NCBI RefSeq assembly: GCF_000023965.1
Contig: NC_013202.1
Coordinates: 930,001-962,000, forward strand
Source: Halomicrobium mukohataei DSM 12286
GTDB lineage: Archaea > Halobacteriota > Halobacteria > Halobacteriales > Haloarculaceae
Length of the DNA: 32,000 bases
Direction of reading: 5' to 3'
Made by a program: the position numbers and the translations under genes. Within the stretch, counting starts at the first letter, position 1; each line of letters opens with the position of its first letter. The notes under the pieces were generated by a model. It saw only the letters and a program-made list of their open reading frames with translations, was not told the DNA's origin and did not search any database. This document shows, one piece after another, positions 3,814 to 28,072 of this stretch.

Positions 3814-4038
3814 TCAGGTGGGGAGTGCGAAGACGAATCCGAGCAACACGAGCGGAACGGCGAACACCAGCGAGTACCAGACGCCGCCGACTGCCAGCAA
3901 CAGCCACGTCGACGCCCCGTAGCCGGTGGGATCCCAGTCCAGTCCCGCTCGTGGGAGCCCGAGCGCGGCGACGGCCGGGAGGCCGACGGCGTAGCCGATC
4001 GTTCCGACGACCGCGACGTCGATCAGGCTGTTGCTCAT
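3814..4038 (-). CDS. small membrane protein (2-3 TM)
   Basis: 74-codon ORF, hydrophobic, with G/C-rich third positions. Its only possible start codon lies inside the terminus of the family-2 repeat (CAT of CTCATACTGCC). Confidence 0.55.
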   Translation of the reverse strand: MSNSLIDVAVVGTIGYAVGLPAVAALGLPRAGLDWDPTGYGASTWLLLAVGGVWYSLVFAVPLVLLGFVFALPT

Positions 4039-4119
4039 ACTGCCGGCTGTAACTTCGTGAAGATCTTCGCCACCCCGGGGTGGCGAAATCGTTCACAGAT
4101 TTACAGCCGGTAGTATCAG
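4034..4119. repeat. family-2 palindromic repeat, full copy (a)
   Basis: CTCATACTGCCGGCTGTAA ... TTACAGCCGGTAGTATCAG flank an internal palindrome centred on TTCGCCACCCC|GGGGTGGCGAA. Confidence 0.8.
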
Positions 4120-4389
4120 CTGTGCGCCCGTCTGGGGGTCGTTCGACGCACCGCTCGCGAACACGGCGAGGAGTCCGCCGACGAACGGAAGCGACCCACA
4201 GAGGCCGGCGAGGACGTACGACGGGAGCACCGACCTCGTGGGTGGGAGCGTCCGGAACAGCGAGCGAACGCGCTTCGCGACCAGAAAGGGCGTCCAGAGG
4301 ACGGTCGCGACGACGCCCGGTGCCAACAGCGTGGCGACGAGGTCGAGCCAGTCGGCGATCTGTGTCGACAGCGATTGGAGGGGGACCAT
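4093..4389 (-). CDS. membrane protein, hypothetical
   Basis: 98-codon hydrophobic ORF with G/C-rich third positions, except for the last 8 codons (CTG ATA CTA CCG GCT GTA AAT CTG), which are encoded by the repeat. Confidence 0.55.
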   Translation of the reverse strand: MVPLQSLSTQIADWLDLVATLLAPGVVATVLWTPFLVAKRVRSLFRTLPPTRSVLPSYVLAGLCGSLPFVGGLLAVFASGASNDPQTGAQLILPAVNL

Positions 4390-6415: not shown

Positions 6416-7000
6416 ATGTACGGTGTGAGTGATCGACATCCGAGCCACGGTCGCGGTCCCGCGCGTCCTCCCGAATCTCGGTCGCCGGTCCCCGGCTCGC
6501 GCGTGGTCTGGCGGGCGGTCGCCCTCTTGCTCGCCGCGTTCGTCCTCGTGAGCGTGTTCGGACAGATCGCCCCGATCAGCTACGTCAACAGCGGGAGCAT
6601 GGCTCCGGCGCTGTCGACCGGTGACGGGTTCGTCGCGGTGCCGGCGGCCGTCGCCGACGATCCCGATCCCGGCGACGTGATCGTCTACCGCTCCCAGGAG
6701 ATCGAGGCCGGCGGACTGGTCACCCACCGGATCGTCGGCCGGACCGACGGGGGGTTCGTGACGAAAGGCGACGCGAACCCCGTCACCGACCAGCAGGCCG
6801 GCGAACCGCCGGTTTCGCGCGATCGCATCGTCGCGCAGGTGTTCGCGGTCGACGGGCGCGTGGTCTCGCTGTCGGGTCTCGGGACCGTCTCGATGACGAT
6901 TCGCAGCGCCGTCCGGACGAGTCCCGTCGGCCTCCCGCCAGCGTCGATGGAGCTGCTGGTGCTTGCCGCGGGTGCGGTGTTGTTCTGGCGCGGGCGGTGA
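6416..7000 (+). CDS. signal peptidase I (S26 family, archaeal Sec11 type)
   Basis: An N-terminal TM helix is followed by the catalytic-serine motif NSGSMAPAL, then VTHRIV and GDANP motifs. Confidence 0.85.
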   Translation: MYGVSDRHPSHGRGPARPPESRSPVPGSRVVWRAVALLLAAFVLVSVFGQIAPISYVNSGSMAPALSTGDGFVAVPAAVADDPDPGDVIVYRSQEIEAGGLVTHRIVGRTDGGFVTKGDANPVTDQQAGEPPVSRDRIVAQVFAVDGRVVSLSGLGTVSMTIRSAVRTSPVGLPPASMELLVLAAGAVLFWRGR

Positions 7001-7084
7001 TATAGTAACGATTGAAACGATTTACACACCGATCGCACTGCCGTCGCGCGATCGGGTGTGCATTAATTTTCAATGGCTACTACA
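7001..7084. mobile_element. family-1 MITE-like palindromic element, copy 1
   Basis: 84 bp including the flanking dinucleotides TA and CA. 76 of 80 core positions are identical to copy 2. It starts directly after the signal peptidase stop codon. Confidence 0.85.
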
Positions 7085-7164
7085 CTGTCGGCTGTACGTC
7101 TGTACAGAATTTCGCGATTCCGTGCTCGCGAATCTCCCGAAACAGTTACAGCCGGCAGTATGAG
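7083..7164. repeat. family-2 palindromic repeat, copy (b), left terminus interrupted by the family-1 element
   Basis: (TGA TA)CTGTCGGCTGTACGTCTG ... TTACAGCCGGCAGTATGAG, with an internal TTCGCGA/TCGCGAA stem. Lies between convergent genes. Confidence 0.75.
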
Positions 7165-7620
7165 TCACTCGGCGGGGTCGACGAGGCCGAGCTCGGCCAG
7201 ATCCCGGAGCACGTCCAGAGCGTGGCCGTCCGGCCGGACGCCCTCGTAGAGGCCGACGACGCGCCCCGCGGCGATGACGAACGTCGTCCGGGCCACGCGC
7301 CCGTCGTCGAGGGCAACGCCGAAGGCGTCGGCGATCTCACCGTCGGGATCGGCCAGCAGGTCGAACGCGAGGTCGTGGTCCTCGGCGAACGCGCGGTGGC
7401 CGTCCACGTCGTCGGTCGAGACGCCGTAGACGGGGATTCCGGCGTCTCGATAGGTGTCGTAGTGGTCGTCGAACTGGCGGGCCTGGGTCGTCCAGCCGGC
7501 GGCGTCGTCTCGCGGGTAGCAGTAAAGCACCGTCGCACCGCCGAAGTCGGGCTCGACGCGCTCGCCCCACTGGTTCCGGGCGCTGATCGCCGGGGCGTCC
7601 GAGCCCGTGTCGAGCACCAT
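7165..7620 (-). CDS. Bcp/AhpC-TSA (peroxiredoxin-fold) protein lacking the peroxidatic cysteine
   Basis: Collinear with Bcp, but the active-site stretch reads YPRDDAAGWTTQAR instead of YPKxxTPGCTxxAC. ATG at 7620; an alternative GTG at 7626 overlaps the hsp20 stop codon. Confidence 0.8.
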   Translation of the reverse strand: MVLDTGSDAPAISARNQWGERVEPDFGGATVLYCYPRDDAAGWTTQARQFDDHYDTYRDAGIPVYGVSTDDVDGHRAFAEDHDLAFDLLADPDGEIADAFGVALDDGRVARTTFVIAAGRVVGLYEGVRPDGHALDVLRDLAELGLVDPAE

Positions 7621-11248: not shown

Positions 11249-12088
11249 ATGAACGAGTCGATCGAGTCGAACATCACGACGCTGTCGGTCGACGGCGACG
11301 ACGTCACCGTCCGATATCTCACTGCCGGTGACGGACCGCCACTGCTCTTCTTGCACGGGATCGGACTCGACGCGGCGGCGGTGTCCGGCCGGTACGCGCT
11401 GCCCGCACTGGCCGAGGAGTACACCGTCTACGCGCTCGATTTCCCGGGCCACGGCGAGAGCGAGAAGCCCCGCCGAACGTATACGACGGACTACTACGTA
11501 GACACACTGTCGGCGTTCGTCGACGAACTCGGTCTCGCCGGCGCGAGCGTCGTCGGCGTGTCGATGGGTGGTGCGGTCGCGCTCGGCCACGCGCTCGACG
11601 GCGGTCGCCCCGAGCGGCTGGTGCTCGTCGACAGCTACGGCCTCGGTGCCGACGCGTACTGGCGGACCGGTGCCAGTCTCGCCCTCCGGATCCCGTTCGC
11701 GGACAGCCTGCTCTGGGGGAGCATGGGAACGCGCGCGGCGGTCCGGACCAGCCTCCGGACGATGTCCGGGGCGACCCTGCCGGACGAACTGGTCGACGAC
11801 GTGTACGAGACGATCTCACCGGCGACCATGCGGACGCTCCGGAGCTGGCAGCGCCACGAGTTCCAGGCCGACGGTCTCCGGACCGACTACACGGAACGGC
11901 TCTCGGAGCTCGACGTTCCGACGCTGCTCGTCCACGGCTCGGCGGACCCGCTGCTCCCGGTATCGTGGTCGCAACGAGCGAGTGAGCTGTTACCAGACGG
12001 GCAGTTCCTGGCGGCGGAGGGCTGTGGGCACTGGCCACACAGGGAACACCCAGAGCGGTTCAATCGAGCGGTAACGGCGTTTCTCTAG
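11249..12088 (+). CDS. alpha/beta-fold hydrolase
   Basis: LLFLHGIG, nucleophile elbow GVSMGG, and the C-terminal His in GCGHWPHREHP. Confidence 0.8.
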   Translation: MNESIESNITTLSVDGDDVTVRYLTAGDGPPLLFLHGIGLDAAAVSGRYALPALAEEYTVYALDFPGHGESEKPRRTYTTDYYVDTLSAFVDELGLAGASVVGVSMGGAVALGHALDGGRPERLVLVDSYGLGADAYWRTGASLALRIPFADSLLWGSMGTRAAVRTSLRTMSGATLPDELVDDVYETISPATMRTLRSWQRHEFQADGLRTDYTERLSELDVPTLLVHGSADPLLPVSWSQRASELLPDGQFLAAEGCGHWPHREHPERFNRAVTAFL

Positions 12089-12702
12089 CTCTCGTCGGGC
12101 ATCTCGTCGATGAGGACGACGGCCTCGCCGTCGATGACCACGTCGCCGTCGTCGACGACGCGGGTCGTCAGGCGGTACTGGTCGTCGCCCAGATCCTCGA
12201 CGATCTCGATTTCGGCCGTCAGACGGTCGTCGATGCGGACCGGGTTGTGAAACTCCAGATCCTGCGAGAGATAGATCGTCAGCCCCGGCAGCCGCGCGAG
12301 GGCGGCGCTGATGAGTCCGCCGACGAGCGTGCCGTGCGCGATCCGGCCGCGGAATCGGGTCTGCTCGGCGAAGTCGTCGTCGAGGTGGAGGGGGTTCGTG
12401 TCGCCGCTGGCGGCCGCGAACTGCTTGACGTCGTTGTCGGAGATCCGCTTCGTGAACTCGACGCGATCACCGACCCCGAGCCGGTCGGGGTTGTCGGCGC
12501 TCAGTTCGACGTGCCACTCGGGGAGGTCCTCGTCGGCCTCGATGCGTTCTGCCGGGAGCGGCTTGCCGTCCCCGTCGTCGTCCGGTCGGACGCCGAACGC
12601 CGCGAACGCTGCCCGATTGGCCGCCACCACGCTGTTGAACATGTGTGAGGACGTTTCTGTCCACGTGTCCAACAGCGGGTTGTCGTGAGATTCAGAACTC
12701 AT
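12085..12702 (-). CDS. maoC: MaoC-like (R)-specific enoyl-CoA hydratase (PhaJ-like), hot-dog fold
   Basis: Hydratase motif SGDTNPLHLDDDFA...GRIAHG. The ATG at 12702 sits about 29 nt behind a TATA-like box. Divergent from the pha operon. Confidence 0.8.
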   Translation of the reverse strand: MSSESHDNPLLDTWTETSSHMFNSVVAANRAAFAAFGVRPDDDGDGKPLPAERIEADEDLPEWHVELSADNPDRLGVGDRVEFTKRISDNDVKQFAAASGDTNPLHLDDDFAEQTRFRGRIAHGTLVGGLISAALARLPGLTIYLSQDLEFHNPVRIDDRLTAEIEIVEDLGDDQYRLTTRVVDDGDVVIDGEAVVLIDEMPDES

Positions 12703-12726
12703 TGCTGGAAGAGCATTGGTTCCTCC

Positions 12727-12736
12727 GATATTAAAG
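12727..12736 (-). promoter_or_regulatory. TATA-box candidate for maoC
   Basis: CTTTAATATC on the minus strand, about 29 nt upstream of the ATG at 12702. Confidence 0.35.
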
Positions 12737-12876
12737 GGTGGTGGTAGTCGCTGTTCGTCGTTCAGACGGCTCCTACCGCTCGACAACGGCGCATTTCCGC
12801 CCGCGAACCTCCGTCTCGTTGCCAGGTCGGTTGCCGTCTGATGACATCTGATGGTAGTCAGTGGTGATGAACGGAA

Positions 12877-12886
12877 GCTTTATGTC
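12877..12886 (+). promoter_or_regulatory. TATA-box candidate for phaR-phaP
   Basis: GCTTTATGTC, about 30 nt upstream of the ATG at 12914. Confidence 0.35.
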
Positions 12887-12913
12887 GTTGAAAGGAATAG
12901 AGTGTAGTACCCG

Positions 12914-13216
12914 ATGACCGACGAGAACGATGTCACGATGTGGCCCCCGATGTTCAAGGGAATGCAGGAAGCGAGCGAGCAGGCGATCGAATCCCAGCAG
13001 GAGATGCTCCAGCAGATGATGTCTGCCGGCAGCAGCATGCCCGGCTTCGACATGAACCAGCTCGGTGCGATGAGCCAGATGGCGACGTTCAAGACCCGCG
13101 TCCAGAGCGGCGGACGCATCTCCATTCCCGACGCCGAGCGAGAGGCCCTCGACATCGAGGAAGGCGACATCGTCCAGACAGTCGTTCTCCCGGTCAAGCG
13201 GAACCGCACGGAGTAA
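12914..13216 (+). CDS. phaR: AbrB/SpoVT-domain regulator of PHA synthesis (PhaR-like)
   Basis: C-terminal SpoVT/AbrB-like motif (RVQSGGRISIPDAEREALDIEEGDIV). Its position directly upstream of the phasin gene matches haloarchaeal pha clusters. Confidence 0.75.
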   Translation: MTDENDVTMWPPMFKGMQEASEQAIESQQEMLQQMMSAGSSMPGFDMNQLGAMSQMATFKTRVQSGGRISIPDAEREALDIEEGDIVQTVVLPVKRNRTE

Positions 13217-13219
13217 CCT

Positions 13220-13771
13220 ATGAGCCAGTACACAACCCCAGTCACCACGGCGTTCGAGATGCAGCGCGCGACGATCGAGCAGAGCCAGAAGGCGCTCAAA
13301 CAGAGCATCGAGTTCCAGAAGAACATGAACGAGGCCATGCTCGGCAGCCTCGACAGCCAGGAGTCGGCACAGCGACGCGGCGTCGAACTCGCACAGACGG
13401 CCGTCCACAACTACCTCGACACCGTCGAGTCGACGGTCCCCGGCGTCGCACCCACCGTCGAGGAGATCCGAACGACCGTCGACGAGCAGTACGAGTTCCT
13501 GCTGGAGAACCACGCCGAGGTCTTCGAGAACGTCGAAGCGGAGTTCCACGAGGGCGCGGAGACTTACGACGAGATGACCGGCGACGTCGTCGCGGCGCTC
13601 GACGAGCAGATCGACCTGCTCGTCGAGGCCCACGAGGACCTCGAAGACCAGTCCGTCGAGGCCGTCGAGCAGTGGGGCGACCAGCTCGAAGACCTCCAGG
13701 ACCAGGTCGAAGAGGTCCAGGAACAGGTCCGCGAAGTCCAGGAACAGGCCGCCGACGCCGTCGAGGCCTAA
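13220..13771 (+). CDS. phaP: PHA granule-associated phasin (PhaP-like)
   Basis: 183-aa highly acidic coiled-coil-type protein lying 3 nt after phaR and upstream of phaEC. The call rests on synteny and composition. Confidence 0.65.
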   Translation: MSQYTTPVTTAFEMQRATIEQSQKALKQSIEFQKNMNEAMLGSLDSQESAQRRGVELAQTAVHNYLDTVESTVPGVAPTVEEIRTTVDEQYEFLLENHAEVFENVEAEFHEGAETYDEMTGDVVAALDEQIDLLVEAHEDLEDQSVEAVEQWGDQLEDLQDQVEEVQEQVREVQEQAADAVEA

Positions 13772-13782
13772 ACCGTCGCACC

Positions 13783-13787
13783 TTTTT
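13783..13787 (+). terminator. oligo-T tract between phaP and phaE
   Basis: A T5 run (CCTTTTTGTT) 12 nt after the phaP stop codon. Confidence 0.3.
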
Positions 13788-13810
13788 GTTCTGCACATCA
13801 ACAACTTACT

Positions 13811-14356
13811 ATGAGTGACACGAACCAGATGCAAGACGAGTGGACGGAGATGGTCGAACAGATGAACGAGGCCGTCTCCGAGTCGGTCGAACAGAACATG
13901 AAGGCACAGGCCGCCTTCGTCGAGTCGTGGGCCGACGCGGTCGAGGACTCGATCCCCGAGGAGGAAAACGTCGCCGAGGGCATCCAGGGGTACAACCAGG
14001 CCTACGAGGAGTGGATGAACGCCGCCGAGAAGATGCTCGAACGCACCGGCGACGCCGCCCAGGGCGAGGACGTGGACCCGACGGAGTTCCGCGACATCTG
14101 GCTCTCGTCGGCCAACGACGCGTTCAAACACGTGATGGGCACCTCCGCGTTCGCCGCCGCCAACGGCCAGCTCGTCGAGACCATGATGGAGATGCGCCAG
14201 CAGGCCGACGACGTGGCTCAGGACTCGATCGCCCAGATGGGCTTCTCGACGCGTGAGGACGTCGAAGAGGTCGGCGAACGGCTCGTCGAGCTGGAGCGTC
14301 GCCAGCACGAGGTCGAACAGAAACTCGACCGCATCCTCGACCACCTCGAGGAATAA
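13811..14356 (+). CDS. phaE: class III PHA synthase subunit PhaE (haloarchaeal type)
   Basis: 181 aa, lying 3 nt upstream of phaC. Size, acidic composition and position match haloarchaeal PhaE. Confidence 0.8.
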   Translation: MSDTNQMQDEWTEMVEQMNEAVSESVEQNMKAQAAFVESWADAVEDSIPEEENVAEGIQGYNQAYEEWMNAAEKMLERTGDAAQGEDVDPTEFRDIWLSSANDAFKHVMGTSAFAAANGQLVETMMEMRQQADDVAQDSIAQMGFSTREDVEEVGERLVELERRQHEVEQKLDRILDHLEE

Positions 14357-14359
14357 CAC

Positions 14360-15754
14360 ATGACGCCCGCAAATCCCTTCACGGCAGCACTCGACTGGCA
14401 GCGCCAGTCCCTGGAGGCGATGACGGAGGCCACCGACCAGGCCAGCGTCGCGCCCGAACGCATCGAGACGATGCAGTCCGTCGAGGTCGGCGAGACGCCC
14501 AGCGACGTGGTGTACGAGGAGAACAAGCTCCAACTGCTCCACTACGACGCCGAGGCCGCCGGGATCGACGTCCCCGAGGAGGACAGAGAGGAGGTCCCGA
14601 TCCTCATCATCTACGCGCTGATCAACCGCCCGTACATCCTCGATCTGCAGGAAGAGCGGTCGGTCGTGCGCCGCTTGCTGGAGGCGGGCCACGACGTGTA
14701 CCTCATCGACTGGAACGAGCCCTCCCGGCTCGACCAACATCTGACGCTCGACGACTACGTCAACCGTTACATCGAGAACTGCGTCGACGAGGTCTGTGAG
14801 CGCTCGGGCCAGGACGCGATCAATATTCTGGGCTACTGCATGGGCGGAACGATGTCGGTCATCTACACGGCGCTGCACCCCGAGAAGGTCAACGCGCTGG
14901 GACTGATGGCCGCGGGACTCTGTTTCGACCAGACCGGCGGCGTCCTCGAAGAGTGGGGCTCCGACGAGTACTACGATCCCGAGGACGTGACCGAGACGTT
15001 CGGCAACGTCCCCTCGGAGATGCTCGACGTGGGCTTTGCCCTGATGGACCCCGTCGACAACTACGTCTCGAAGTACATCCGCCTGGCCGAGAACATCGAG
15101 AACGAAGGGTTCGTCCGGAACTTCGGCCGGATGGAGCAGTGGCTTTCCGACGGCGTCGACGTGGCCGGCGAGGCCTACGTCGAGTTCCTGGAGAAGATCT
15201 ACCAGGACAACGACCTCTACAACAATCGACTGGAGATCGGCGGCGAACACGTCGACCTCGACGACATCGACATGCCGATGCTCCAGTTGATGGGGGAGTA
15301 CGACCACCTCATCCCACCGGAGGCCTCCAAGCCGTTCAACGAGGTCGTCGGCTCCGAGGACGTGACCACGATGGAGTTCTCGACGGGCCACATCGGCCTC
15401 TCGGTCTCGTCGAGCACCCACGAGAACCTCTGGCCCGACGTGTGTGACTGGTACAAGGAACGCAACCGACAGGCCGAAGCGTCGGACGACGACAGCGACG
15501 AGGCCGTCCCGATCGACGTGGAGTCGCCGGCAGACGACGCTGCCGAGAGCGACGACGGGGAAGCGGCCCACGAGAGTGCCGCGGACGCTCCCGACGTGGC
15601 GTCTGTCGACGGGATCGGTCCGACCTACGCCGACCGCCTGCGCGAGGCCGGCATCGAGACCGTCGACGACCTCGCAGGGCACGACGCGGCCGAACTGGCC
15701 GAGATCGCCGAAACGACCGAGTCTCGGGTCCGGGACTGGCTCGACCAGCTGTAG
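14360..15754 (+). CDS. phaC: class III PHA synthase catalytic subunit PhaC with a C-terminal acidic linker and HhH-like tail
   Basis: Lipase-box-like GYCMGG with the catalytic Cys, an alpha/beta fold, and HIGLSVS near the end of the catalytic domain. About 90 extra C-terminal residues. Confidence 0.95.
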
Positions 15755-15839
15755 CCGGACGCCTCGACCGGAACATCACTTTCCTTCGTGGGTATCGTCC
15801 GGCGGACCGCTTTTCACGGCCGGGTGTGAACTGGTTGAT

Positions 15840-16580
15840 ATGCTCGACGGACAGACCTGTCTGGTGACCGGCTCCTCTCGCGGGATCGGACGCGGGATCG
15901 CCACGGACGTGGCGGCCCACGGAGCGACCGTGGTCGTCAACTATCGCTCCTCGGAACGAGCGGCCGAGGCGGTCGTCGACGAGATCGAGGCCGACGGCGG
16001 CGAGGCGGTCGCCGTTCGGGGAGACGTGTCGTCGTACGACGCCGTCGAACGGATGCACACGAGGATCCACGACGCCGTCGGCCCGGTCGACGTGGTCGTC
16101 AACAACGCCGGGATCACGGTCGACCGGACCTTCGGGGAGATGACCCGCGAGGACTGGGAGGCCGTCATCGACGTGAACCTCGGCGGCGTGTTCAACGTCA
16201 GCCACTGCTTCTACGACGACATCTGCGAGGCCGAGGACGGCCGTCTGATCAACGTCTCCTCGGTCGTCGGCCAGCAGGGCAACTACGGGCAGGCCAACTA
16301 CGCGGCGGCCAAGTCCGGCCTATTCGGGTTCACCCGGACGCTGGCCCTGGAGATGGCAGCCACCGGATCGACAGCCAACTGCGTCGCGCCGGGGTTCGTC
16401 GCGACGGACATGCTCGACGAGGTCCCCCAGCGCGTCCAGGAGCGGATCCTCCAGCGGATCCCGCTGGACCGGTTCGCAACGATCGAGGACATCGCCCCCG
16501 TCGTGCGCTTCCTCGCCAGCCCGGAGTCGCGCTACATGACCGGCCAGGTGATCGGCGTCAACGGCGGGATGGACTGGTAG
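15840..16580 (+). CDS. phaB: SDR-family 3-oxoacyl/acetoacetyl-CoA reductase (FabG/PhaB-like)
   Basis: TGSSRGIGRGIA cofactor motif, NNAG, and the catalytic YxxxK (YAAAK). Lies directly downstream of phaC. The role in PHA synthesis is inferred from position. Confidence 0.85.
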   Translation: MLDGQTCLVTGSSRGIGRGIATDVAAHGATVVVNYRSSERAAEAVVDEIEADGGEAVAVRGDVSSYDAVERMHTRIHDAVGPVDVVVNNAGITVDRTFGEMTREDWEAVIDVNLGGVFNVSHCFYDDICEAEDGRLINVSSVVGQQGNYGQANYAAAKSGLFGFTRTLALEMAATGSTANCVAPGFVATDMLDEVPQRVQERILQRIPLDRFATIEDIAPVVRFLASPESRYMTGQVIGVNGGMDW

Positions 16581-18908: not shown

Positions 18909-18939
18909 TCATACTGCCGGCAGCGTCAGTCTGCCGGCT
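18909..18939. repeat. degenerate family-2 repeat terminus, copy (d)
   Basis: TCATACTGCCGGCAG CGTCAGT CTGCCGGCT spans the tatCt stop codon (18926-18928). Only the terminal motif is recognisable. Confidence 0.35.
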
Positions 18940-21130
18940 CGGCACCCTCGGGTGCCCGTCTGCCACCGAGGGTGTAGAGCCACAGCACCCCGAGACCGAC
19001 GAGGAAGGCGATCGTCACCGGGACCGAGACGAGGAACATCGTGAAGATGCCCTTCGGCGAGAACAGGGCTCCGGCGACGAACACCCCGAGCGTGACGGTT
19101 CGCCAGCGGTCCTGGACCGACTGGAAGGTGATGATGTTCCCGCGGTGGAACAGCAACATCGTCACCGGGATCTCGAACAGCAGTCCGATCCCGACCGTCA
19201 GCGCGAGCACGAGCCAGCCGAACTTGGCGACGCGGTAGGAGATGATCATCCCCGACTGGAGCACGTCGAAGGCCAGCCAGGAGATCACCGTCGGGGCGAC
19301 GTAGGTGAACCCGACGAGGCTCCCGCCGACCATCGACGCGATGACGGTCCCGCTCCAGATCCCGAGCACGCCACGCTGACCGCCGACGAAGCCACGCTCT
19401 TTCAGCGCCGGCCAGGCGAAGTAGACGATCAGCGGTAACACCGACACCGCGCCCAGGATCGCGGAGAACTTCACGATGAAGATCAGGTGCTCGACCGGGT
19501 GGAGGTTGACGAACGTCACGTCGGCCCGCATCGACGGCGGGAGGTTGCTGACGAACGTGTTCCGGATGTCGCCGATGCCCCCGGAGTACAGGAAGACGAA
19601 GGCGGCCCCGGAGATCGCCATGAACGTGCCGACGAACCAGATCGCCTTCGAGGTCAGCGAGTCGAGGATGAAGGCGATGTCGTGGTAGTAGCCGCCGATG
19701 TCGTCCTCGGTGGTCTCCTCCTCGGTGAAGGCGTTCATCACGCCGGCCGTCGTCGAGGTGACCACGTCGGCGTCGTCCTCGTCGTCGTCCTCGGCCGCTT
19801 CGCCCGTGCCAGCCATCGTGTCCTGGGCGAAGTCCCAGCGTCCCAGGATCGCCTCGGCCTTGTCCGGGTTCCCGTCGTCCATCGCCGACTGGGCCAGTTC
19901 GAGCGCTTCCTGCTCTTCCATCTCTTGGAACCGCTGGACCGGCGCGCTCCGGACGGCACCGGCGCTCAGCGGTTCGATGTCGATGGCCGTCGGATCGCCG
20001 TAGTTGCCCGCTTCGGCGGCCGCCACGTCGAGGGCCTGGATCATGTAGTAGTACAGGACGACGACCGCAGCCACCAGTCCGAACACGGCTGCGATGGCGA
20101 TCGCGGTCGTCTCCGTTCCCAGTCCGAGCAGGTCCGGGCGAGCGACATCGCCGGTGAGCCGGTCGGAGGGGAACCACGCGGCGAACGCCCGGATGTACTG
20201 GAACGCGGGCGTCGCCAGCAGGTAGTACACCACGCCGCCGGCCACGACCGCCCCGGCGGCGAGCTTGTTCCAGCGCGTGCGTGCGACGCTCTTCGCACCG
20301 ACTTCCTCGCCGGCCCGCTTTGTCAACACCAGTATCTTCGAGATACCGAGGCTGACGACGTACAGCCCGACGAGCGGCAGCGCCCACATCACCTGCGTGA
20401 ACGGGTCCGGCGGCGAGAACAGCGCACCGAACCCGAAGATCAGGACCACCGCGACCCGCCAGCGGTCGCGGAACGTCTCGTAGGGGACGATGCCGGTGTA
20501 GCTCAGCGCACTCATAAACAGCGGGAGCTGGGCCGCCAATCCGAACGAGAAGCCAAGCAGCGCGACGAACCCGACCCACTTCGTGATCGAGTAGTCCGGT
20601 CGGAAGCCGGCGGCGTCGGCGTTTTCCGCCAGGAAGTCGAACATCAGCGGGAAAAAGAGGTTATAGGAGTAGAGGATCCCGCCGACGAACAGGCCGATAG
20701 CGATCAACAGCAGACTCCAGAGCTTCCACAGTGGCACCCTGTCGGCGGGCCACAGATCGCGTTCGCGCAGCGCGTCGCGGCTGTAGTAGATCAGGAAGGG
20801 GAGCGCGAGGAGGATGCCGATGACCGCCCCGATTTTCACCTGCAAGAGGATCACGTCGAAGGGCGTGACGGCGACGATGTCGGCCTCTTCGGCGGTCCGT
20901 TCGATCATGTCCGCCTTCAACCGATCCCACAGGAACTCCTGGAGCGCGTAGATCGTTCCGACGAGGCCGACGACCCAGACGATGAACACCTTCTGGAGGT
21001 GTTTTTGCGCGGCTCTGAGCATCGAGCCCATCGTCTCGCGGCCGCTCTGGACCGACCGCATCGTGTCTTCGTCGAGCCCCGTAGACATCTGGTCGGAGAC
21101 TTGCCGACTCTGCGTTATCAATTTGTTCAT
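18926..21130 (-). CDS. tatCt: twin-arginine translocase subunit TatCt (duplicated, about 14-TM TatC)
   Basis: 735 aa made of two TatC-like membrane domains joined by an acidic cytoplasmic linker, as in haloarchaeal TatCt. The ATG at 21130 (MNKLITQS...) is used; the longer ORF to 21640 is an Arg-rich shadow extension. Confidence 0.9.
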   Translation of the reverse strand: MNKLITQSRQVSDQMSTGLDEDTMRSVQSGRETMGSMLRAAQKHLQKVFIVWVVGLVGTIYALQEFLWDRLKADMIERTAEEADIVAVTPFDVILLQVKIGAVIGILLALPFLIYYSRDALRERDLWPADRVPLWKLWSLLLIAIGLFVGGILYSYNLFFPLMFDFLAENADAAGFRPDYSITKWVGFVALLGFSFGLAAQLPLFMSALSYTGIVPYETFRDRWRVAVVLIFGFGALFSPPDPFTQVMWALPLVGLYVVSLGISKILVLTKRAGEEVGAKSVARTRWNKLAAGAVVAGGVVYYLLATPAFQYIRAFAAWFPSDRLTGDVARPDLLGLGTETTAIAIAAVFGLVAAVVVLYYYMIQALDVAAAEAGNYGDPTAIDIEPLSAGAVRSAPVQRFQEMEEQEALELAQSAMDDGNPDKAEAILGRWDFAQDTMAGTGEAAEDDDEDDADVVTSTTAGVMNAFTEEETTEDDIGGYYHDIAFILDSLTSKAIWFVGTFMAISGAAFVFLYSGGIGDIRNTFVSNLPPSMRADVTFVNLHPVEHLIFIVKFSAILGAVSVLPLIVYFAWPALKERGFVGGQRGVLGIWSGTVIASMVGGSLVGFTYVAPTVISWLAFDVLQSGMIISYRVAKFGWLVLALTVGIGLLFEIPVTMLLFHRGNIITFQSVQDRWRTVTLGVFVAGALFSPKGIFTMFLVSVPVTIAFLVGLGVLWLYTLGGRRAPEGAEPAD

Positions 21131-21198: not shown

Positions 21199-22995
21199 AT
21201 GGGCGACCGCGACGGCGACGACGAGCGAGCCAGCGAGGAGCCGGGCGACTCCCACTCGGAGGAGTCCCCGGCCGACGAGCAGCAGGTACCCTCGTCGACC
21301 GCCGTCGACGCGAAAGCCGACGACGCGTCCGACGCGACGGAGGACTCGGTGGAGGACTCGGCGGACCACCCGGAAGACGAAGACGGAGCCCCCGACTCGG
21401 ACGACGATCCACAGGAGTGGTGGAAAGACCACGACCCAGAGAACGAAGTCGACGAGTCCGGCGACGACGAGGAGCTGTCGCCGGCCGCCCGCCGAGATCA
21501 GACGCAGGCACGCGGCGACGCCCGCCGGGCCGACGAGGCCGACGACTCGTCGGACGCCGACGATTCCGAGGACAGTGGGGCGGACGCAGACGACTCGTCG
21601 GACGCCGACGACGGTGATGCCGACGACTCGGAGGAGCCAAAGCAGGTCCACGCTCCCGGACCGACGCCGAAGGGGGGCGGTACTGCCGCCAGTGCGACGG
21701 CGCGGCCGACGCGCGATCGCGAACCGCCGTCGCCGCCGGACGACGTCGGGCCGTCGACGGCTCCCGACGACGAGGAGATGCCCCTGACCGAACACGTCGA
21801 GGAGATGGCGCTGCGGTTCCTGGCGGTCGGGCTCGTCATGTTCGGCGTCGCCGGGATCGTCGTGTTCTACGCCAACGACCTGATCAACTTCCTGTGGTAC
21901 TCGTTCCTGGGCGATCCGGCGCTCTGTCCCGGCCCGGACTGCGGTGTCAAGCCCCGCGTCTACCACCCGCTCTCGCTGGTGCTCGCGCGTCTGAAGGTGT
22001 CGACGCTGGTCGGGCTGATCATCGCACTGCCGGTGGGCGTCTACCAAACCTATCGGTTCATGCGCCCCGGCCTCTACCCCCGCGAGCGACGCTACTACCT
22101 CGCGGCCGTGCCCACGAGCCTCGTGCTGGCCGTCGTCGGCGTCGGATTCGCGTACTTCGCCGTGCTCCCCTCGCTCTTTGCCTACTTCACGGAGTACAGC
22201 GAACAGGCGGCGACGACGGCGTTCGGGCTGACCGAGACGTTCAATCTCATGGTCCTGATGCTCGGGTTCTTCGCGCTGGTCTTCCAGATCCCGCTGCTGG
22301 TGATGCTGGCGATCATGATGGGCGTGACGACCCGCCAGTGGCTCGAAGACCGCCGGCTGTACTTCTGGGGTGGCTTCGCCGCCGTCGCCTTCCTCTTTAG
22401 CCCGGACCCGACCGGGATGGCACCGCTGATCGTCGCGGTGACGATGATCGTCCTGTTCGAGGGGACGCTGACCCTGCTTCGCTGGACCGGCACCGGTTCG
22501 CCGATCCCGACGGCCGAGGAGGCCGCAGACCGCCGGCCGGCCGCCTACCTCGCCGCGGCGCTGGGCGGTTACGTCGCCAGTAGCGGCCCGATCCCGCCGG
22601 GCTACTACGACGCGCTGCCACAGGTCGTGATCGACCAACTCGCGAGTTCGGGTGGGCCGATCGCGACACCGGCGATCATCGCGGGTGCGCTGATCGCGCT
22701 GTTCGAGATCGGAGCCTTCCTGCTCAGGCGCTACGGCCGCTCGCGGCGGGCGCTCAAGGCACGCCTCGCGGTCGAAGATGCCCGGATCCCCGTCTGGCTC
22801 GGTGCGGTCGTCGTCGGCTACTTCGGGAGCCCGACGCCGACGCTCGTCACCGCCGCTCGCGATCTGGCCCTGTCGCCGACGCGGGCGGCGCTGGTCGGTG
22901 TCGGACTGGTGGTCCTGTACGAACTGTTCGTCGCCGTGCTTCGCTGGCGTGAGGGCGACGACGACGCCCAGACGCCGACGACGGACGAGGCCTAG
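21199..22995 (+). CDS. tatCo: twin-arginine translocase subunit TatCo with a long acidic N-terminal extension and extra C-terminal TM helices
   Basis: The TatC core runs from about residue 195 (MPLTEHVEEMALRF...) to about residue 430. It is preceded by about 190 Asp/Glu/Ser-rich residues and followed by about 165 residues containing about 4 hydrophobic helices. Divergent from tatCt. Confidence 0.8.
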   Translation: MGDRDGDDERASEEPGDSHSEESPADEQQVPSSTAVDAKADDASDATEDSVEDSADHPEDEDGAPDSDDDPQEWWKDHDPENEVDESGDDEELSPAARRDQTQARGDARRADEADDSSDADDSEDSGADADDSSDADDGDADDSEEPKQVHAPGPTPKGGGTAASATARPTRDREPPSPPDDVGPSTAPDDEEMPLTEHVEEMALRFLAVGLVMFGVAGIVVFYANDLINFLWYSFLGDPALCPGPDCGVKPRVYHPLSLVLARLKVSTLVGLIIALPVGVYQTYRFMRPGLYPRERRYYLAAVPTSLVLAVVGVGFAYFAVLPSLFAYFTEYSEQAATTAFGLTETFNLMVLMLGFFALVFQIPLLVMLAIMMGVTTRQWLEDRRLYFWGGFAAVAFLFSPDPTGMAPLIVAVTMIVLFEGTLTLLRWTGTGSPIPTAEEAADRRPAAYLAAALGGYVASSGPIPPGYYDALPQVVIDQLASSGGPIATPAIIAGALIALFEIGAFLLRRYGRSRRALKARLAVEDARIPVWLGAVVVGYFGSPTPTLVTAARDLALSPTRAALVGVGLVVLYELFVAVLRWREGDDDAQTPTTDEA

Positions 22996-25996: not shown

Positions 25997-26040
25997 CTCA
26001 TACTGCCGGCTGTACGTCTGTCCAACAGCCGGCAGTATCA
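25997..26040. repeat. family-2 palindromic repeat, short copy (c)
   Basis: CTCATACTGCCGGCTGTACGTCTGTCCAACAGCCGGCAGTATCA. The last three bases are the stop codon of the minus-strand rhomboid gene. Confidence 0.8.
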
Positions 26041-26673
26041 CGCTGGCTCTGGCTGGGCTCCCTTCTGGCGCGGGCGCAACACGTGGACGCGGCCGGCCAC
26101 CAGCCCCAGCAACAGACCGGTGAAGTGTGCGACGAGCGCGACCTGTGGCCGGGCCGTGGCCAGCGTGACGACGACCGCGATCGCCGCGAAGGCCGCCAGT
26201 TGCAGTCGCGGGCTGAGCTGAATCGTACCGACGACGCGATCCGTGAGTCGGTTGCTGGTCAGCAGGTACCCCGCCAGTGCGAAGACTGCCCCGCTCCCGC
26301 CCAGTACGCTCACCTGGCCCGCGCCGCCAAGCACCGCACCCACCAGCGGCGCGAGCCACACCTCGGCGAGCCCCGAGAGCGCCCCCGCGACCACGAAGAA
26401 GGCGTGAAAGCGGGCCGGCGTCGTCTGGCGTTCCAGCAAGATTCCGACGACCGCCAGCGCGACCGCGTTCGCGACCAGGTGCGAGACGCCGCTGTGGGCG
26501 TAGACGCTCGTCACGACCGTCCACGGGTTGTGGGTCACCGGCGTCGTCAGCACGAACAGCGACTGCATCGCGACGCCACCCGCGACCAGCGACACGAGTT
26601 CCTGACAGAGAAACACCGCGAGGAACACGGCCAGGGTCATCACCGTCGGACTCCCCAGAAGTCGTCGTCGCAT
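26038..26673 (-). CDS. rhomboid-family intramembrane serine protease
   Basis: HxxxN (SHLVANA), catalytic GGSGAVFALAGY, and a distal His (AHFTGLLLG), with 6 TM helices. The ATG at 26673 is used; the listed start at 26700 is a TTG. Confidence 0.85.
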   Translation of the reverse strand: MRRRLLGSPTVMTLAVFLAVFLCQELVSLVAGGVAMQSLFVLTTPVTHNPWTVVTSVYAHSGVSHLVANAVALAVVGILLERQTTPARFHAFFVVAGALSGLAEVWLAPLVGAVLGGAGQVSVLGGSGAVFALAGYLLTSNRLTDRVVGTIQLSPRLQLAAFAAIAVVVTLATARPQVALVAHFTGLLLGLVAGRVHVLRPRQKGAQPEPA

Positions 26674-26698: not shown

Positions 26699-26750
26699 AA
26701 AAAATCGCGGTCTGGACGGGGGTCGTCCCAGACGTACAGCCGCGGTATCA
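26699..26750 (-). terminator. hairpin plus T6 terminator-like structure after orc1, built from a family-2 repeat arm (copy e)
   Basis: The minus strand reads TGATACCGCGGCTGTACGTCTGGGACGACCCCCGTCCAGACCGCGATTTTTT. The stem is GTCTGGGACG/CGTCCAGAC, followed by T6. The first 22 nt match the family-2 terminus. Confidence 0.5.
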
Positions 26751-27875
26751 GAGCCGTTCGAGGACGGCCTCGGGATCGTACTGCAGGGTGAGTTCCCGCG
26801 AGCGCCCGCGGCCGTCGACGTTGGTGTAGGTGGCCTCGATGACGCCCAGCTGGTCGAGCTTGTTGATGATCTCGGAGTAGCGGGTGTAGCCCAGGTCGGT
26901 CTGGTCGTTGAAGGCGTCGTAGATCTCGCCGGCCCGCTGGCCGTCGTGCTGGGCGATCACCTCCGCGAGTGCGGCCTCCGACTCCGACAGTTCCCGCAGC
27001 CGTCGCGAGAGATGGACGTACTTGGACTTGTCGTAGGCGTCTTCCACGTCCTCGCGCTCGACGGTGCGGGACGCTCGCATCTCCGCGTTCATCCCCGCTC
27101 GGCGGAGCAGGTCGATTCCCACACGGAGGTCCCCGCCCTGCTTGGCGGTGAGTTCGGCCACGCGGTCGAGCACCGTCGTGTCGACGACGCCGTCGTGGAA
27201 CCCGCGGTCGGCCCGCTCTCGCAGGATGCCGACGATCTCGGGCTCGTCGTACCTGTTGAAGTAGATCTCTTCGGGTCGGAAGACGCTCTGGACGCGCGTA
27301 TCGAGCGCGTCGATCACGTCCAGATCGAGGTCCGAGGAGATGCAGATGACGCCGATCTTGGCCCCAGAGTGAGCCTCGTGGGCGCGCAACAGCGAGTATA
27401 GCGTGTCGCTGGCTTCGGACTCGTAGAAGAGGTAGTTCACGTCGTCGAGTGCCACCACCAGCACCTCCTCGCGCTCGACGAGGCGGTCGGTGATCTGGGA
27501 GAACAGCTTCTTGAAGGAGATGCCGGAGGAGGGGGGCTCGTAGTCGAATATCTCGGCGAACAGCCGCGAGAAGACGGCGTAGCGCGTCGAATCGACCTGA
27601 CAGTTGACCCGCACCGCCTGCACGTCGGTCTGGGCGGTGAGTTCGTCGAAGAGGATCTGGGTCGCCGTCGTCTTGCCGGTGCCGGGCGGTCCGCGAGCGA
27701 TGACGTTCAGCGGGCGAGAGCCACGCACGGCGGGCCTGAGCGCGTACTTCAGGTTCTCCATCTGGCTCTCCCGGTGTTCGAACGTCTGAGGGACGTAGTC
27801 GATCTCGAAGACGTGCTCGTCCCGAAAGACGGACTCGTCCCAGGAGAGCATCCCCTCCTCCGGGTCGTCGCTCAT
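26748..27875 (-). CDS. orc1: Orc1/Cdc6-type replication initiator
   Basis: Walker A GPPGTGKT, Walker B VVALDDVN, sensor motifs, and a C-terminal winged helix. The ATG at 27875 (MSDDPEEG...) is used; the upstream ORF extension runs into a MITE copy. Confidence 0.95.
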   Translation of the reverse strand: MSDDPEEGMLSWDESVFRDEHVFEIDYVPQTFEHRESQMENLKYALRPAVRGSRPLNVIARGPPGTGKTTATQILFDELTAQTDVQAVRVNCQVDSTRYAVFSRLFAEIFDYEPPSSGISFKKLFSQITDRLVEREEVLVVALDDVNYLFYESEASDTLYSLLRAHEAHSGAKIGVICISSDLDLDVIDALDTRVQSVFRPEEIYFNRYDEPEIVGILRERADRGFHDGVVDTTVLDRVAELTAKQGGDLRVGIDLLRRAGMNAEMRASRTVEREDVEDAYDKSKYVHLSRRLRELSESEAALAEVIAQHDGQRAGEIYDAFNDQTDLGYTRYSEIINKLDQLGVIEATYTNVDGRGRSRELTLQYDPEAVLERL

Positions 27876-27988
27876 CACTTTCACCGCGGTCCGCGCGCCA
27901 CTTAACGATTCCCCAGGGTGGCGAAACTGTAACTGCGGCGCTCCTCCCGTGATATTCGGGGAGTCGGCAGCAACCCTTCTCTGTGATC

Positions 27989-28072
27989 TATAGTAACAAT
28001 TGAAACGATCTACATACTGATCGCACTGCTGTCGTGCGATCGAGTGTGTACTGAATTTCAATGGCTACTATA
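27989..28072. mobile_element. family-1 MITE-like palindromic element, copy 3 (upstream of orc1)
   Basis: 84 bp with TA flanks. 71 of 80 core positions are identical to copy 2, and the same two-stem hairpin is kept. Confidence 0.85.

What the first reader, a model, noticed from the sequence alone, without database searches (positions are those of the whole stretch)
4034..4119. Second palindromic repeat family (REP-like) with conserved termini and divergent, still palindromic interiors
The terminus CTCATACTGCCGGCTGTA, or its variant TGATACTGCCGGCTGTA, recurs at five loci. Three are full or near-full copies: 4034-4119; 6998-7000 plus 7083-7164; and 25997-26040, a 44-bp short form. A single arm lies at 26711-26750, and a degenerate trace lies at 18909-18939. 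Every full copy has one CTCATAC end and one CTGATAC/TGATAC end, so the elements are oriented. Copies b, c and e share GGCTGTACGTCTG next to the terminus. The interiors differ: TTCGCCACCCC|GGGGTGGCGAA in copy a, and TTCGCGA...TCGCGAA in copy b. Each interior is still self-complementary, which suggests that the hairpin is retained rather than the primary sequence. All five loci lie at the 3' end of a gene. I do not recognise this as a described family.
Basis: seen in the sequence. Interest (0 to 1): 0.7.

Follow-up and report, generated by a model that had tools for sequence, protein, structure and literature searches.

The report
Haloarchaeal 78-bp MITE that duplicates TNA
The repeat is a small non-coding jumping element (a MITE) found in many salt-loving archaea; it duplicates a three-base TNA target, so many copies sit exactly on TGA or TAA stop codons, and it is a new example of a well-known kind of element rather than a new kind.

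Summary
The 15-mer ATACTGCCGGCTGTA occurs 12 times in the window against 0.2 expected. The window (Halomicrobium, CP045142.1) holds two full 78-bp copies, one 37-bp deletion derivative, one truncated end and one doubtful trace.

It is a MITE, not a REP/RAYT-type repeat:
- It has 14-17-bp terminal inverted repeats (TACTGCCGGCTGTA...TACAGCCGGCAGTA).
- It has a near-palindromic interior.
- It has a 3-bp target-site duplication. Across 99 copies from about 100 haloarchaeal loci, 83 have identical direct flanks (TCA/TCA or TGA/TGA) and only 1 has TCA/TGA.

Copy a interrupts a gene. Removing 81 bp restores a 164-aa DUF8162 ORF, and a 95%-identical intact ortholog shows the empty site with a single TGA.

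The target is TNA, in the context C-TNA-G. A stop codon is the duplication in 45 of 112 element sides that face a gene's 3' end. This explains most of the 3'-end bias: 34 observed against 21.5-24 expected.

Compensatory changes in the central stem exceed shuffled controls. No autonomous transposase was found. There is no Rfam match, and I found no paper that describes the family.

The parts
4035..4118 (.). Copy a. A full 78-bp element (4038-4115) flanked by the direct duplication TCA (4035-4037 and 4116-4118). It is inserted inside a DUF8162 membrane-protein gene.
   Evidence: nhmmer E=7e-25. Removing 81 bp restores a 164-aa ORF. The intact ortholog L136 lacks exactly these 81 bp and keeps one TGA. 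RNA fold -51 kcal/mol, z=-9.7.
3814..4038 (-). Downstream half of the split DUF8162 gene (74 aa). Its ATG is made from the element's last A plus the TG of the duplication.
   Evidence: (PF26494 on both halves).
4093..4389 (-). Upstream half of the split DUF8162 gene (98 aa). Its last 7 codons and its stop (ILPAVNL*) are read from the element's arm.
   Evidence: Homologs are 161-166 aa and cover 99-100% of the rejoined protein.
6998..7002 (.). Copy b, left end. The duplication TGA (6998-7000) is the stop codon of the S26-like gene 6416-7000 (+). It is followed by the first two bases (TA) of the terminal repeat.
   Evidence: Sequence reading. Rejoining 7001-7002 to 7085-7160 gives a 78-bp element with the left repeat TACTGTCGGCTGTA and matching TGA/TGA flanks.
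7003..7084 (.). Not part of the family. This is an unrelated 80-bp inverted-repeat element (7003-7082) plus its mutated TA duplicate (CA, 7083-7084), inserted into the terminal TA of copy b.
   Evidence: A second copy at 27991-28070 is flanked by TA/TA.
7085..7163 (.). Copy b, remainder (7085-7160), plus the right duplication TGA (7161-7163). The stop codon of the AhpC/TSA gene (7165-7167, - strand) lies 1 nt beyond it.
   Evidence: nhmmer E=5e-18.
25998..26040 (.). Copy c. A 37-bp internal-deletion derivative (26001-26037) with both terminal repeats intact, flanked by TCA/TCA. The right TCA (26038-26040) is the TGA stop codon of the rhomboid gene 26038-26673 (-).
   Evidence: Fold -27.7 kcal/mol.
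26723..26750 (.). Copy d. A truncated or degenerate copy. One recognisable end (CCCAGACGTACAGCCGCGGTA, terminal repeat at 26735-26747) plus TCA (26748-26750), which is the TGA stop codon of orc1/cdc6 26748-27884 (-).
   Evidence: The profile match is weak (E=1.3). Sequence identity to the common arm variant CAGACGTACAGCC.
18909..18928 (.). Copy e. A doubtful trace: TCA TACTGCCGGCAGCG TCA. The right TCA is the stop codon of the TatC gene 18926-21130 (-). It may be a collapsed remnant or chance.
   Evidence: Equally good matches to a collapsed repeat occur in coding DNA, and no class of such remnants was found in 1.07 Mb.

Best explanation

Anatomy (shown):
- The canonical unit is 78 bp: TACTGCCGGCTGTAACTTCGTGAAGATATTCGCCACCCCGGGGTGGCGAAATTCTTCACAGACTTACAGCCGGCAGTA.
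- It has 14-17-bp terminal inverted repeats around a near-palindromic, non-coding interior.

Mechanism (inferred, except where marked):
- A transposase supplied in trans, not identified here, would bind the terminal repeats.
- It would cut the target with a 3-nt stagger at T-N-A, preferentially in the context C-TNA-G, and join the element.
- Repair of the stagger would duplicate TNA on both sides. The duplication itself is shown.
- The signature (exclusive 3-bp TNA duplication, palindromic C..G context) is that of the IS1031 subgroup of the IS5 family and of PIF/Harbinger transposases. A DDE transposase of that superfamily is therefore the most likely mobiliser.

Why copies sit on stop codons (coincidence shown, causes inferred):
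- TGA and TAA are themselves TNA sites.
- Insertion there regenerates the stop codon.
- Haloarchaeal intergenic regions are short and their promoters abut the start codons.
- Surviving copies therefore pile up exactly on stop codons.

Other consequences:
- Insertions inside genes do occur. Copy a splits a DUF8162 gene. The element supplies in-frame stops, and with a TGA duplication a junction ATG. Both are shown.
- When transcribed, each copy would form a hairpin of -40 to -51 kcal/mol immediately 3' of the ORF. Any effect on mRNA is untested.
For: Terminal repeats and copy number:
About 100 are from Halobacteria: Halomicrobium, Haloarcula, Halovenus, Halapricum, Natronomonas, Salinirussus, Natrarchaeobius, Halostagnicola and MAGs.
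- Plasmids of Halomicrobium, Haloarcula, Natribaculum and Haloplanus also carry it.
- 66 of 101 paired copies have exactly the same length.

Target-site duplication:
- 83 of 99 copies have identical direct 3-nt flanks, and 1 of 99 has TCA/TGA.
- A sample free of the bias from the search pattern gives TCA 4, TGA 2, TAA 2, TTA 1.
- Flank type is independent of element orientation.

Empty site:
- The intact ortholog (P0001, 95% identity) lacks exactly the element plus one TGA.
- Copy b regains 78 bp and matching TGA/TGA flanks once the nested element is removed.

Target context:
- C at -1 in 73% and G at +3 in 59% of sites.
- At insertions that are not on stop codons, C is 57% against 26% background.

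Stop codons:
- The duplication is the stop codon on 45 of 112 stop-facing sides.
- RefSeq-annotated stops coincide with the duplication in L137 (TGA) and L141 (TAA).

Other:
- No ORF of useful size, no Rfam family, no T-tract terminator.
- The IS1031 subgroup has a TNA target and an exclusive 3-bp repeat (PMC12016507).
Against: - No autonomous element with these terminal repeats was found in 1.07 Mb of flanking DNA from element-rich genomes, nor in about 108 kb (of 224 kb) of an annotated Halomicrobium plasmid. The mobiliser and its family are therefore inferred only.
- Known IS1031-group ends begin GA/GG (for example GAACCTGTC), not TAC.
- Stop-codon coincidence still exceeds the nulls I could build: 34 against 21.5 (uniform) or 24.0 (flank-weighted), P about 5e-5. 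Targeting or function beyond 'TNA plus selection' is not excluded.
- Excess compensatory change in the central stem, together with conserved asymmetric mismatches, hints at a constraint on structure that a purely selfish MITE does not require.
Confidence: 0.9

Rival explanations
1. REP/REPIN-like extragenic palindromes mobilised by a RAYT (IS200/IS605-like Y1 transposase), or PATE-type remnants of IS605 elements.
For: The repeats are short and palindromic, mostly extragenic, with hairpin potential. Haloarchaea are rich in IS605-type elements and PATEs (PMC3119063).
Against: REP, REPIN and PATE elements have no terminal inverted repeats at their boundaries and cause no target duplication (PATE definition). 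Here 83 of 99 copies carry a direct 3-bp duplication, and an empty site with a single TGA is documented. The ends are true inverted repeats.
Confidence: 0.03
2. A host-selected 3'-end RNA element. The hairpin placed right after stop codons would act as a terminator, an mRNA stabiliser or a processing site, and the hairpin would be maintained by selection. Transposition would only be the means of delivery.
For: Stop-codon coincidence exceeds both nulls. Compensatory changes at pairs 15/64, 29/50, 34/45 and 35/44 exceed shuffles. The folds are very stable. Bacterial MITEs (Correia, ERIC) are known to affect transcripts through RNase III or RNase E (PMC10969869).
Against: There is no U/T tract after the hairpin, so no canonical archaeal terminator. 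There is no significant orientation bias relative to the upstream gene (12:5). Copies also lie between divergent genes (12 of 99) and inside a gene. Most of the stop-codon effect is reproduced by the target rule alone. Covariation can arise from expansion of a few subfamilies, and the shuffle control does not correct for relatedness.
Confidence: 0.12
3. An operator or binding-site palindrome (ACWGCCGGCWGT) for a host DNA-binding protein, recurring in regulatory regions.
For: The terminal repeat is itself a quasi-palindrome around GCCGGC, and it occurs near gene boundaries.
Against: Copies come as whole 78-bp units of fixed length with duplicated flanks. They lie mainly downstream of genes, next to unrelated genes, in many genera. 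Precise presence/absence of the whole unit is documented.
Confidence: 0.02

Closest known systems
Prokaryotic MITEs in general, and the archaeal examples: Sulfolobus SM1-SM4, Halobacterium MITEHsal, Haloquadratum MITE and SMR classes
   Same: Short and non-coding, with terminal inverted repeats, target-site duplication and many dispersed copies. They depend on a transposase in trans, show nested insertions into one another, and occur mostly between genes.
   Different: At 78 bp it is much shorter than the Halobacterium and Haloquadratum MITEs, which are described as hundreds of bp. It is shared with highly conserved ends across many genera of Halobacteria. No partner transposon is known. Unlike Haloquadratum SMRs, it does make target duplications.
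IS5 family, IS1031 subgroup, and the related eukaryotic PIF/Harbinger transposons with their Tourist-type MITEs
   Same: Exclusive 3-bp duplication of a TNA target (IS1031; canonical Harbinger 3-bp duplications). From my own knowledge, PIF and mPIF insert in a palindromic target with a central TTA/TAA. This resembles the C-TNA-G context found here.
   Different: The terminal repeats (TAC...) do not resemble the IS1031-type ends quoted (GAACC...). No IS5-family transposase was linked to the element. The link rests on the insertion signature only.
Correia (CREE/NEMIS), ERIC and RUP elements of bacteria
   Same: Near-palindromic MITEs of about 100-150 bp. When co-transcribed with neighbouring genes they fold into long hairpins that can alter mRNA processing. 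They are often close to gene ends, and for some the mobilising enzyme is unknown.
   Different: From my own knowledge, those elements duplicate TA. This one duplicates TNA. No promoter, RNase or IHF function has been tested here. The host is an archaeon.
REP/REPIN elements with RAYT transposases
   Same: Short, extragenic, hairpin-forming repeats present in many copies.
   Different: REPs have no terminal inverted repeats bounding a unit and no target duplication. This element has both.

Membership tests
MITE | Short (tens to a few hundred bp) and without coding capacity for a transposase | tested here: met
   The canonical length is 78 bp. 66 of 101 paired copies have the identical length. 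Variants are 37-110 bp.
MITE | Terminal inverted repeats | tested here: met
   TACTGCCGGCTGTA / TACAGCCGGCAGTA. Pairs 1-14 are 85-100% complementary across 62 distinct copies.
MITE | Target-site duplication of fixed length flanking each copy | tested here: met
   83 of 99 copies have identical direct 3-nt flanks. An unbiased subset gives TNA. The duplication is independent of orientation.
MITE | Evidence of mobility: a filled site versus an empty site | tested here: met
   Window copy a compared with the intact ortholog in L136 shows a precise 81-bp difference, with a single TGA at the empty site.
MITE | Multiple dispersed copies in a genome and in related genomes | tested here: met
   There are 14 places on one 224-kb Halomicrobium plasmid.
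MITE | An autonomous IS with matching terminal repeats and the same duplication length | tested here: inconclusive
   None was found in 1.07 Mb of loci or in about 108 kb of annotated plasmid. Whole genomes could not be scanned.
IS5 family / IS1031-subgroup-mobilised element | 3-bp duplication of a TNA target | tested here: met
   The family property is quoted.
IS5 family / IS1031-subgroup-mobilised element | Terminal repeats similar to those of an IS1031-group IS, with such a transposase present in the host | tested here: not met
   The ends begin TAC, against GAACC for the example. No partner IS was found. Presence of the transposase in the hosts was not testable with these tools.
REP/REPIN (RAYT-dependent) | No target duplication; a 20-40-bp imperfect palindrome; an associated RAYT gene | tested here: not met
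   A target duplication is present. The unit is 78 bp and bounded by inverted repeats. No search for RAYT genes was made.
PATE / IS200-IS605 derivative | No terminal inverted repeats, sub-terminal palindromes, no target duplication (definition in PMC3119063) | tested here: not met
   Terminal inverted repeats and a duplication are both present.
Described RNA family (Rfam) | A match at the gathering threshold to any of 4227 covariance models | tested here: not met
   No match in the whole window.
Intrinsic terminator | A G+C-rich hairpin followed by a T run | tested here: not met
   No terminator-like site overlaps copies a, b or c. Only the degenerate copy d is followed by T6.

The most novel reading that the evidence does not exclude
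The element may be specialised for stop codons rather than landing on them by accident. Its TNA target equals TGA or TAA, and its C-TNA-G preference fits the G+C-rich third position of the last sense codon. Insertion restores the stop, and a hairpin of -40 to -51 kcal/mol, kept paired by compensatory change, is placed at the first nucleotide of the 3' UTR. Hosts across the Halobacteria may therefore retain copies because they shape mRNA 3' ends or termination. With a TGA duplication the element end also creates a junction ATG, which could let the distal part of a split gene be translated.
Probability: 0.12. Interest if true: 0.6.

Novelty: new member of a known kind. Interest (0 to 1): 0.35.

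Why it matters
- Annotation. The family is not annotated in the RefSeq-derived gene tables of the records examined. It creates split or extended ORFs: the two 'DUF8162' genes in the window are one gene cut by the element. It also generates spurious peptides such as ILPAVNL or YSRQYE at gene ends. Recognising it would improve haloarchaeal genome annotation and pseudogene calling.
- Transposon biology. It is a compact, highly conserved MITE shared by many genera of Halobacteria whose transposase is unknown. Its TNA signature points to an IS5/PIF-Harbinger-type enzyme that remains to be identified in these archaea.
- Interpretation of distribution. It shows clearly how a target rule alone (TNA covers two of the three stop codons), combined with selection, produces a striking 'stop-codon-hugging' distribution that could be mistaken for a 3'-end regulatory motif.
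- A natural experiment. Many haloarchaeal mRNAs would carry a very stable hairpin directly after the stop codon. This allows hairpin effects on archaeal termination and mRNA stability to be tested.

Tried and rejected
Search for the autonomous partner:
- Pairs of arms 300-4000 bp apart in all loci. Only combinations of separate short copies turned up.
- Solo perfect ends. There were 13, all truncated copies or chance hits in bacteria, and none was an IS end.
- A de novo scan for TNA-flanked inverted repeats 400-3500 bp apart in 1.07 Mb found none.
- The annotation of about 108 kb of the 224-kb plasmid pLC1Hm-01 lists no transposase.

The 104-110-bp variants:
- They share a peptide-like stretch, V(K)RSRPEDEVLDGIQPDIAEKS*. 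I considered that it might be the C-terminus of the parent transposase.
- tblastn against plasmids found nothing.
A version padded with X found no protein.
- The metagenome scan by peptide gave 82 pattern hits, none confirmed.
- A degenerate DNA pattern gave 3 chance hits in metagenomes and 0 in viral contigs.
- In the one pair I compared by eye, differences between variants are only mildly enriched at third codon positions (8 of 15). The script tally was misregistered and is not informative. Frameshifts also occur. I treat the idea as unsupported.

Other checks:
- Viral contigs. The 12 hits to the 17-mer are single arms in contigs of 37-56% G+C, so chance.
- Pfam did not hold DUF8162, so the split gene was confirmed through homologs instead.
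- The idea that the trace at 18909-18928 is a 'collapsed repeat' footprint. No such class exists in the loci, and equal matches occur in coding DNA.
- Literature. No paper in the library contains the terminal-repeat sequence. Reviews and haloarchaeal mobile-element papers do not describe the family. A 2024 automated census reports many unnamed MITEs in Haloarculaceae and Halovenus MAGs. Its supplements were not available to check.

Full report
**Source and setting.** The window is 66% G+C. An exact protein look-up places it on CP045142.1 (GCA_009217585.1, 3.09 Mb); the record's organism name was not returned. Nearly identical sequence with the same insertions occurs in Halomicrobium katesii DSM 19301, which is why I assign it to Halomicrobium. 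Gene calls from a codon-usage model trained on the fetched loci reproduce the deposited gene calls around the finding.

**1. The observation.**
- ATACTGCCGGCTGTA with up to 3 mismatches occurs 12 times in the window, against 0.21 expected.
- A profile built from 65 copies found in other genomes recovers 4038-4115 (E=7e-25), 7083-7160 (E=5e-18) and the two ends of 26001-26037. It recovers 26723-26742 only weakly.
- The trace at 18909-18939 and a match at 22347 are no better than chance matches in coding DNA.

**2. Distribution elsewhere.**
- About 100 loci are from Halobacteria: Halomicrobium, Haloarcula, Halovenus, Halapricum, Natronomonas, Salinirussus, Natrarchaeobius, Halostagnicola and many MAGs.
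- The rest are single hits in unrelated bacteria, about as many as expected by chance for a 17-mer.
- BLAST finds copies on plasmids or secondary chromosomes of Halomicrobium, Haloarcula, Natribaculum and Haloplanus, up to 26 places per record. The gene tables examined annotate no feature for the element itself; some best hits overlap annotated CDSs.
- Of 101 arm pairs, 66 are exactly the same length.
- The consensus between the flanks is 78 bp: TACTGCCGGCTGTAACTTCGTGAAGATATTCGCCACCCCGGGGTGGCGAAATTCTTCACAGACTTACAGCCGGCAGTA.

**3. The flanks are a target-site duplication.**
- In 99 paired copies, the three bases outside TAC...GTA are identical direct repeats in 83: 43 TCA/TCA, 39 TGA/TGA and 1 TTA/TTA. 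Only one copy has TCA/TGA.
- One end was fixed to TSA by the search pattern. The informative result is that the other end carries the same middle base 82:1.
- Read inward from each end, a direct TCA...TCA gives one 'TCATAC' end and one 'TGATAC' end.
- Polarity is excluded. The element does have a definable orientation, from conserved asymmetric positions 16/63, 18/61, 19/60, 27/52 and 28/51. The flank read in that orientation is TGA in 20 copies and TCA in 16.
- Identical interiors occur with either flank (window copy a and L100).
- Elements whose ends did not match the scan pattern give TCA 4, TGA 2, TAA 2 and TTA 1. The target is therefore TNA.
- The reconstructed targets show C at -1 in 73% and G at +3 in 59%. 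At insertions not on stop codons, C is 57% against 26% background. The preferred site is the palindromic context C-TNA-G.

**4. Direct evidence of insertion.**
- Copy a lies between two minus-strand ORFs of 98 and 74 aa, and both carry PF26494 (DUF8162).
- Deleting the 78-bp element and one TCA (81 bp) joins them in frame into a 164-aa protein.
- Fifty-six homologs were found, most of them 156-190 aa. The 31 best, 161-237 aa long, cover 96-100% of the rejoined protein. The closest is 95% identical and intact.
- Its contig aligns base for base with the window, except that it lacks exactly the 81 bp and has a single TGA at the site: CAGT-TGA-GCAAC.
- In the window, the upstream half runs into the arm and ends ILPAVNL*. 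The downstream half starts at an ATG formed by the last A of the element and the TG of the duplication.
- The same insertion is present in H. katesii (L012).

**5. Copy b is a nested insertion.**
- The stretch 7003-7082 is an unrelated 80-bp inverted-repeat element. A second copy lies at 27991-28070, flanked by TA/TA.
- Removing it together with the mutated duplicate CA (7083-7084) joins TA (7001-7002) to CTGTCGGCTGTA.
- This restores a 78-bp element with the left repeat TACTGTCGGCTGTA, a variant seen in other copies, and matching TGA/TGA flanks.
- The left TGA (6998-7000) is the stop codon of the S26-like gene.

**6. Why gene 3' ends.**
- Of the 112 element sides that face a gene's 3' end, the stop codon is the duplication itself in 45.
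- In the window this holds for b (S26-like gene), c (rhomboid) and d (orc1/cdc6), and nominally for e (TatC).
- RefSeq annotation shows the same on a Halomicrobium plasmid: CDS 11720-12940 with TGA, and CDS 3287-3886 of L141 with TAA.
- TGA is the commonest stop here: 476 of 715.
- If an element could land on any TSA site of its own intergenic region, stop codons included, 21.5 of 64 would fall on a stop. Weighting sites by the flank preference gives 24.0. The observed number is 34 (P about 5e-5).
- The target rule plus short intergenic regions therefore explains most of the effect.
- The remaining 1.4- to 1.6-fold excess lies mainly where the other neighbour is a gene start (14 observed against 5.7 expected).
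- No predicted start lies 0-27 nt from an element end, apart from the junction-ATG cases. This is what selection against disrupting promoters that abut leaderless start codons would produce. That last step is inference.

**7. Hairpin.**
- Copies fold at -51 and -48 (a, the two strands), -40 (b) and -28 (c) kcal/mol, with z from -5.8 to -9.7.
- On 62 distinct 78-bp copies, 86% of cells pair.
- Cells with changes on both sides number 62, against 34 +/- 4.5 in shuffles (0 of 500 reach it). They are concentrated at 15/64, 29/50, 34/45 (CG 33, GC 15) and 35/44 (AU 45, GC 10).
- The control does not remove relatedness. A few amplified subfamilies, or correction between the arms of a palindrome, could give the same picture.
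- There is no T tract after the hairpin, no significant orientation bias toward the upstream gene (12:5) and no Rfam family.

**8. Mobiliser.**
- I found no autonomous partner.
- An exclusive 3-bp duplication of TNA is the stated property of the IS1031 subgroup of the IS5 family (PMC12016507). Related PIF/Harbinger elements make 3-bp duplications.
- On that basis I infer a DDE transposase of this superfamily. The ends do not resemble the quoted IS1031-type ends, so membership is not claimed.
- A sister family has the repeat TACGGTCGGTTGTA, the same 78-bp length and TCA flanks. It coexists with the studied family in some MAGs. This suggests at least two related specificities.

**9. Comparison and novelty.**
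- All defining features of a MITE are met except the known partner.
- REP/RAYT, PATE/IS605, operator-site and terminator readings each fail a defining feature.
- The searchable literature does not contain the sequence.
- It lists archaeal MITEs only for Sulfolobus, Halobacterium, Haloquadratum and a few others.
- An automated census reports hundreds of unnamed MITEs in Haloarculaceae and Halovenus MAGs and probably includes this family. I could not check this.
- I rate it a new, or at least undescribed, member of a known kind, of moderate interest.

Noticed in passing
window 7003-7082 and 27991-28070: A second, unrelated 80-bp inverted-repeat element (TAGTAAC.ATTGAAACGAT...ATTTCAATGGCTACTA). 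It is flanked by TA/TA upstream of orc1/cdc6, and by TA/CA where it sits inside the terminal TA of copy b. It looks like a TA-duplicating MITE.
   Followed up: partly
window 3814-4389 (- strand): The two adjacent 'DUF8162' genes (74 and 98 aa) are one 164-aa gene split by the element. Both halves remain open. The distal one starts at an ATG created by the element end plus the duplicated TGA.
   Followed up: yes
L121 980-1057 and 2470-2547; L055 524-601 and 3224-3301; L024 7034-7110: A sister family with the terminal repeat TACGGTCGGTTGTA. In the copies read in full it is also 78 bp and mostly flanked by TCA. It coexists with the studied family in the same MAGs.
   Followed up: partly
L014 2238-2344, L034 4383-4486, L075 3963-4070, L092 1874-1980, L045 596-701, L086 649-752: Variants of 104-110 bp have the same terminal repeats but a different interior. 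In one frame it reads as a conserved peptide, V(K)RSRPEDEVLDGIQPDIAEKS*, with several synonymous-type differences between genomes. No protein with this sequence was found. Its origin is unexplained.
   Followed up: partly
window 26700-26747 (- strand): Downstream of orc1/cdc6, the degenerate copy d forms its own hairpin (GTCTGGGACG...CGTCCAGAC) and is followed by TTTTTT, just upstream of the rhomboid gene. This is the only copy in the window with a terminator-like T run.
   Followed up: no
L137 17150-17227 and L141 3887-3964 (Halomicrobium sp. LC1Hm plasmid): These copies are flanked by TAA/TAA. This shows the target is TNA and not only TSA. In L141 the TAA is the RefSeq-annotated stop codon of an HTH-domain gene.
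   Followed up: yes
all loci: Apart from junction-ATG cases, no predicted gene start lies closer than 28 nt to an element end. This is consistent with exclusion from the promoter-to-start interval of leaderless genes. Start-codon calls are approximate.
   Followed up: no
window 12085-16580: A polyhydroxyalkanoate cluster (MaoC dehydratase, PhaE, PhaC, short-chain dehydrogenase), with 75% DNA identity to the Haloferax mediterranei phaC region. It is unrelated to the finding.
   Followed up: no
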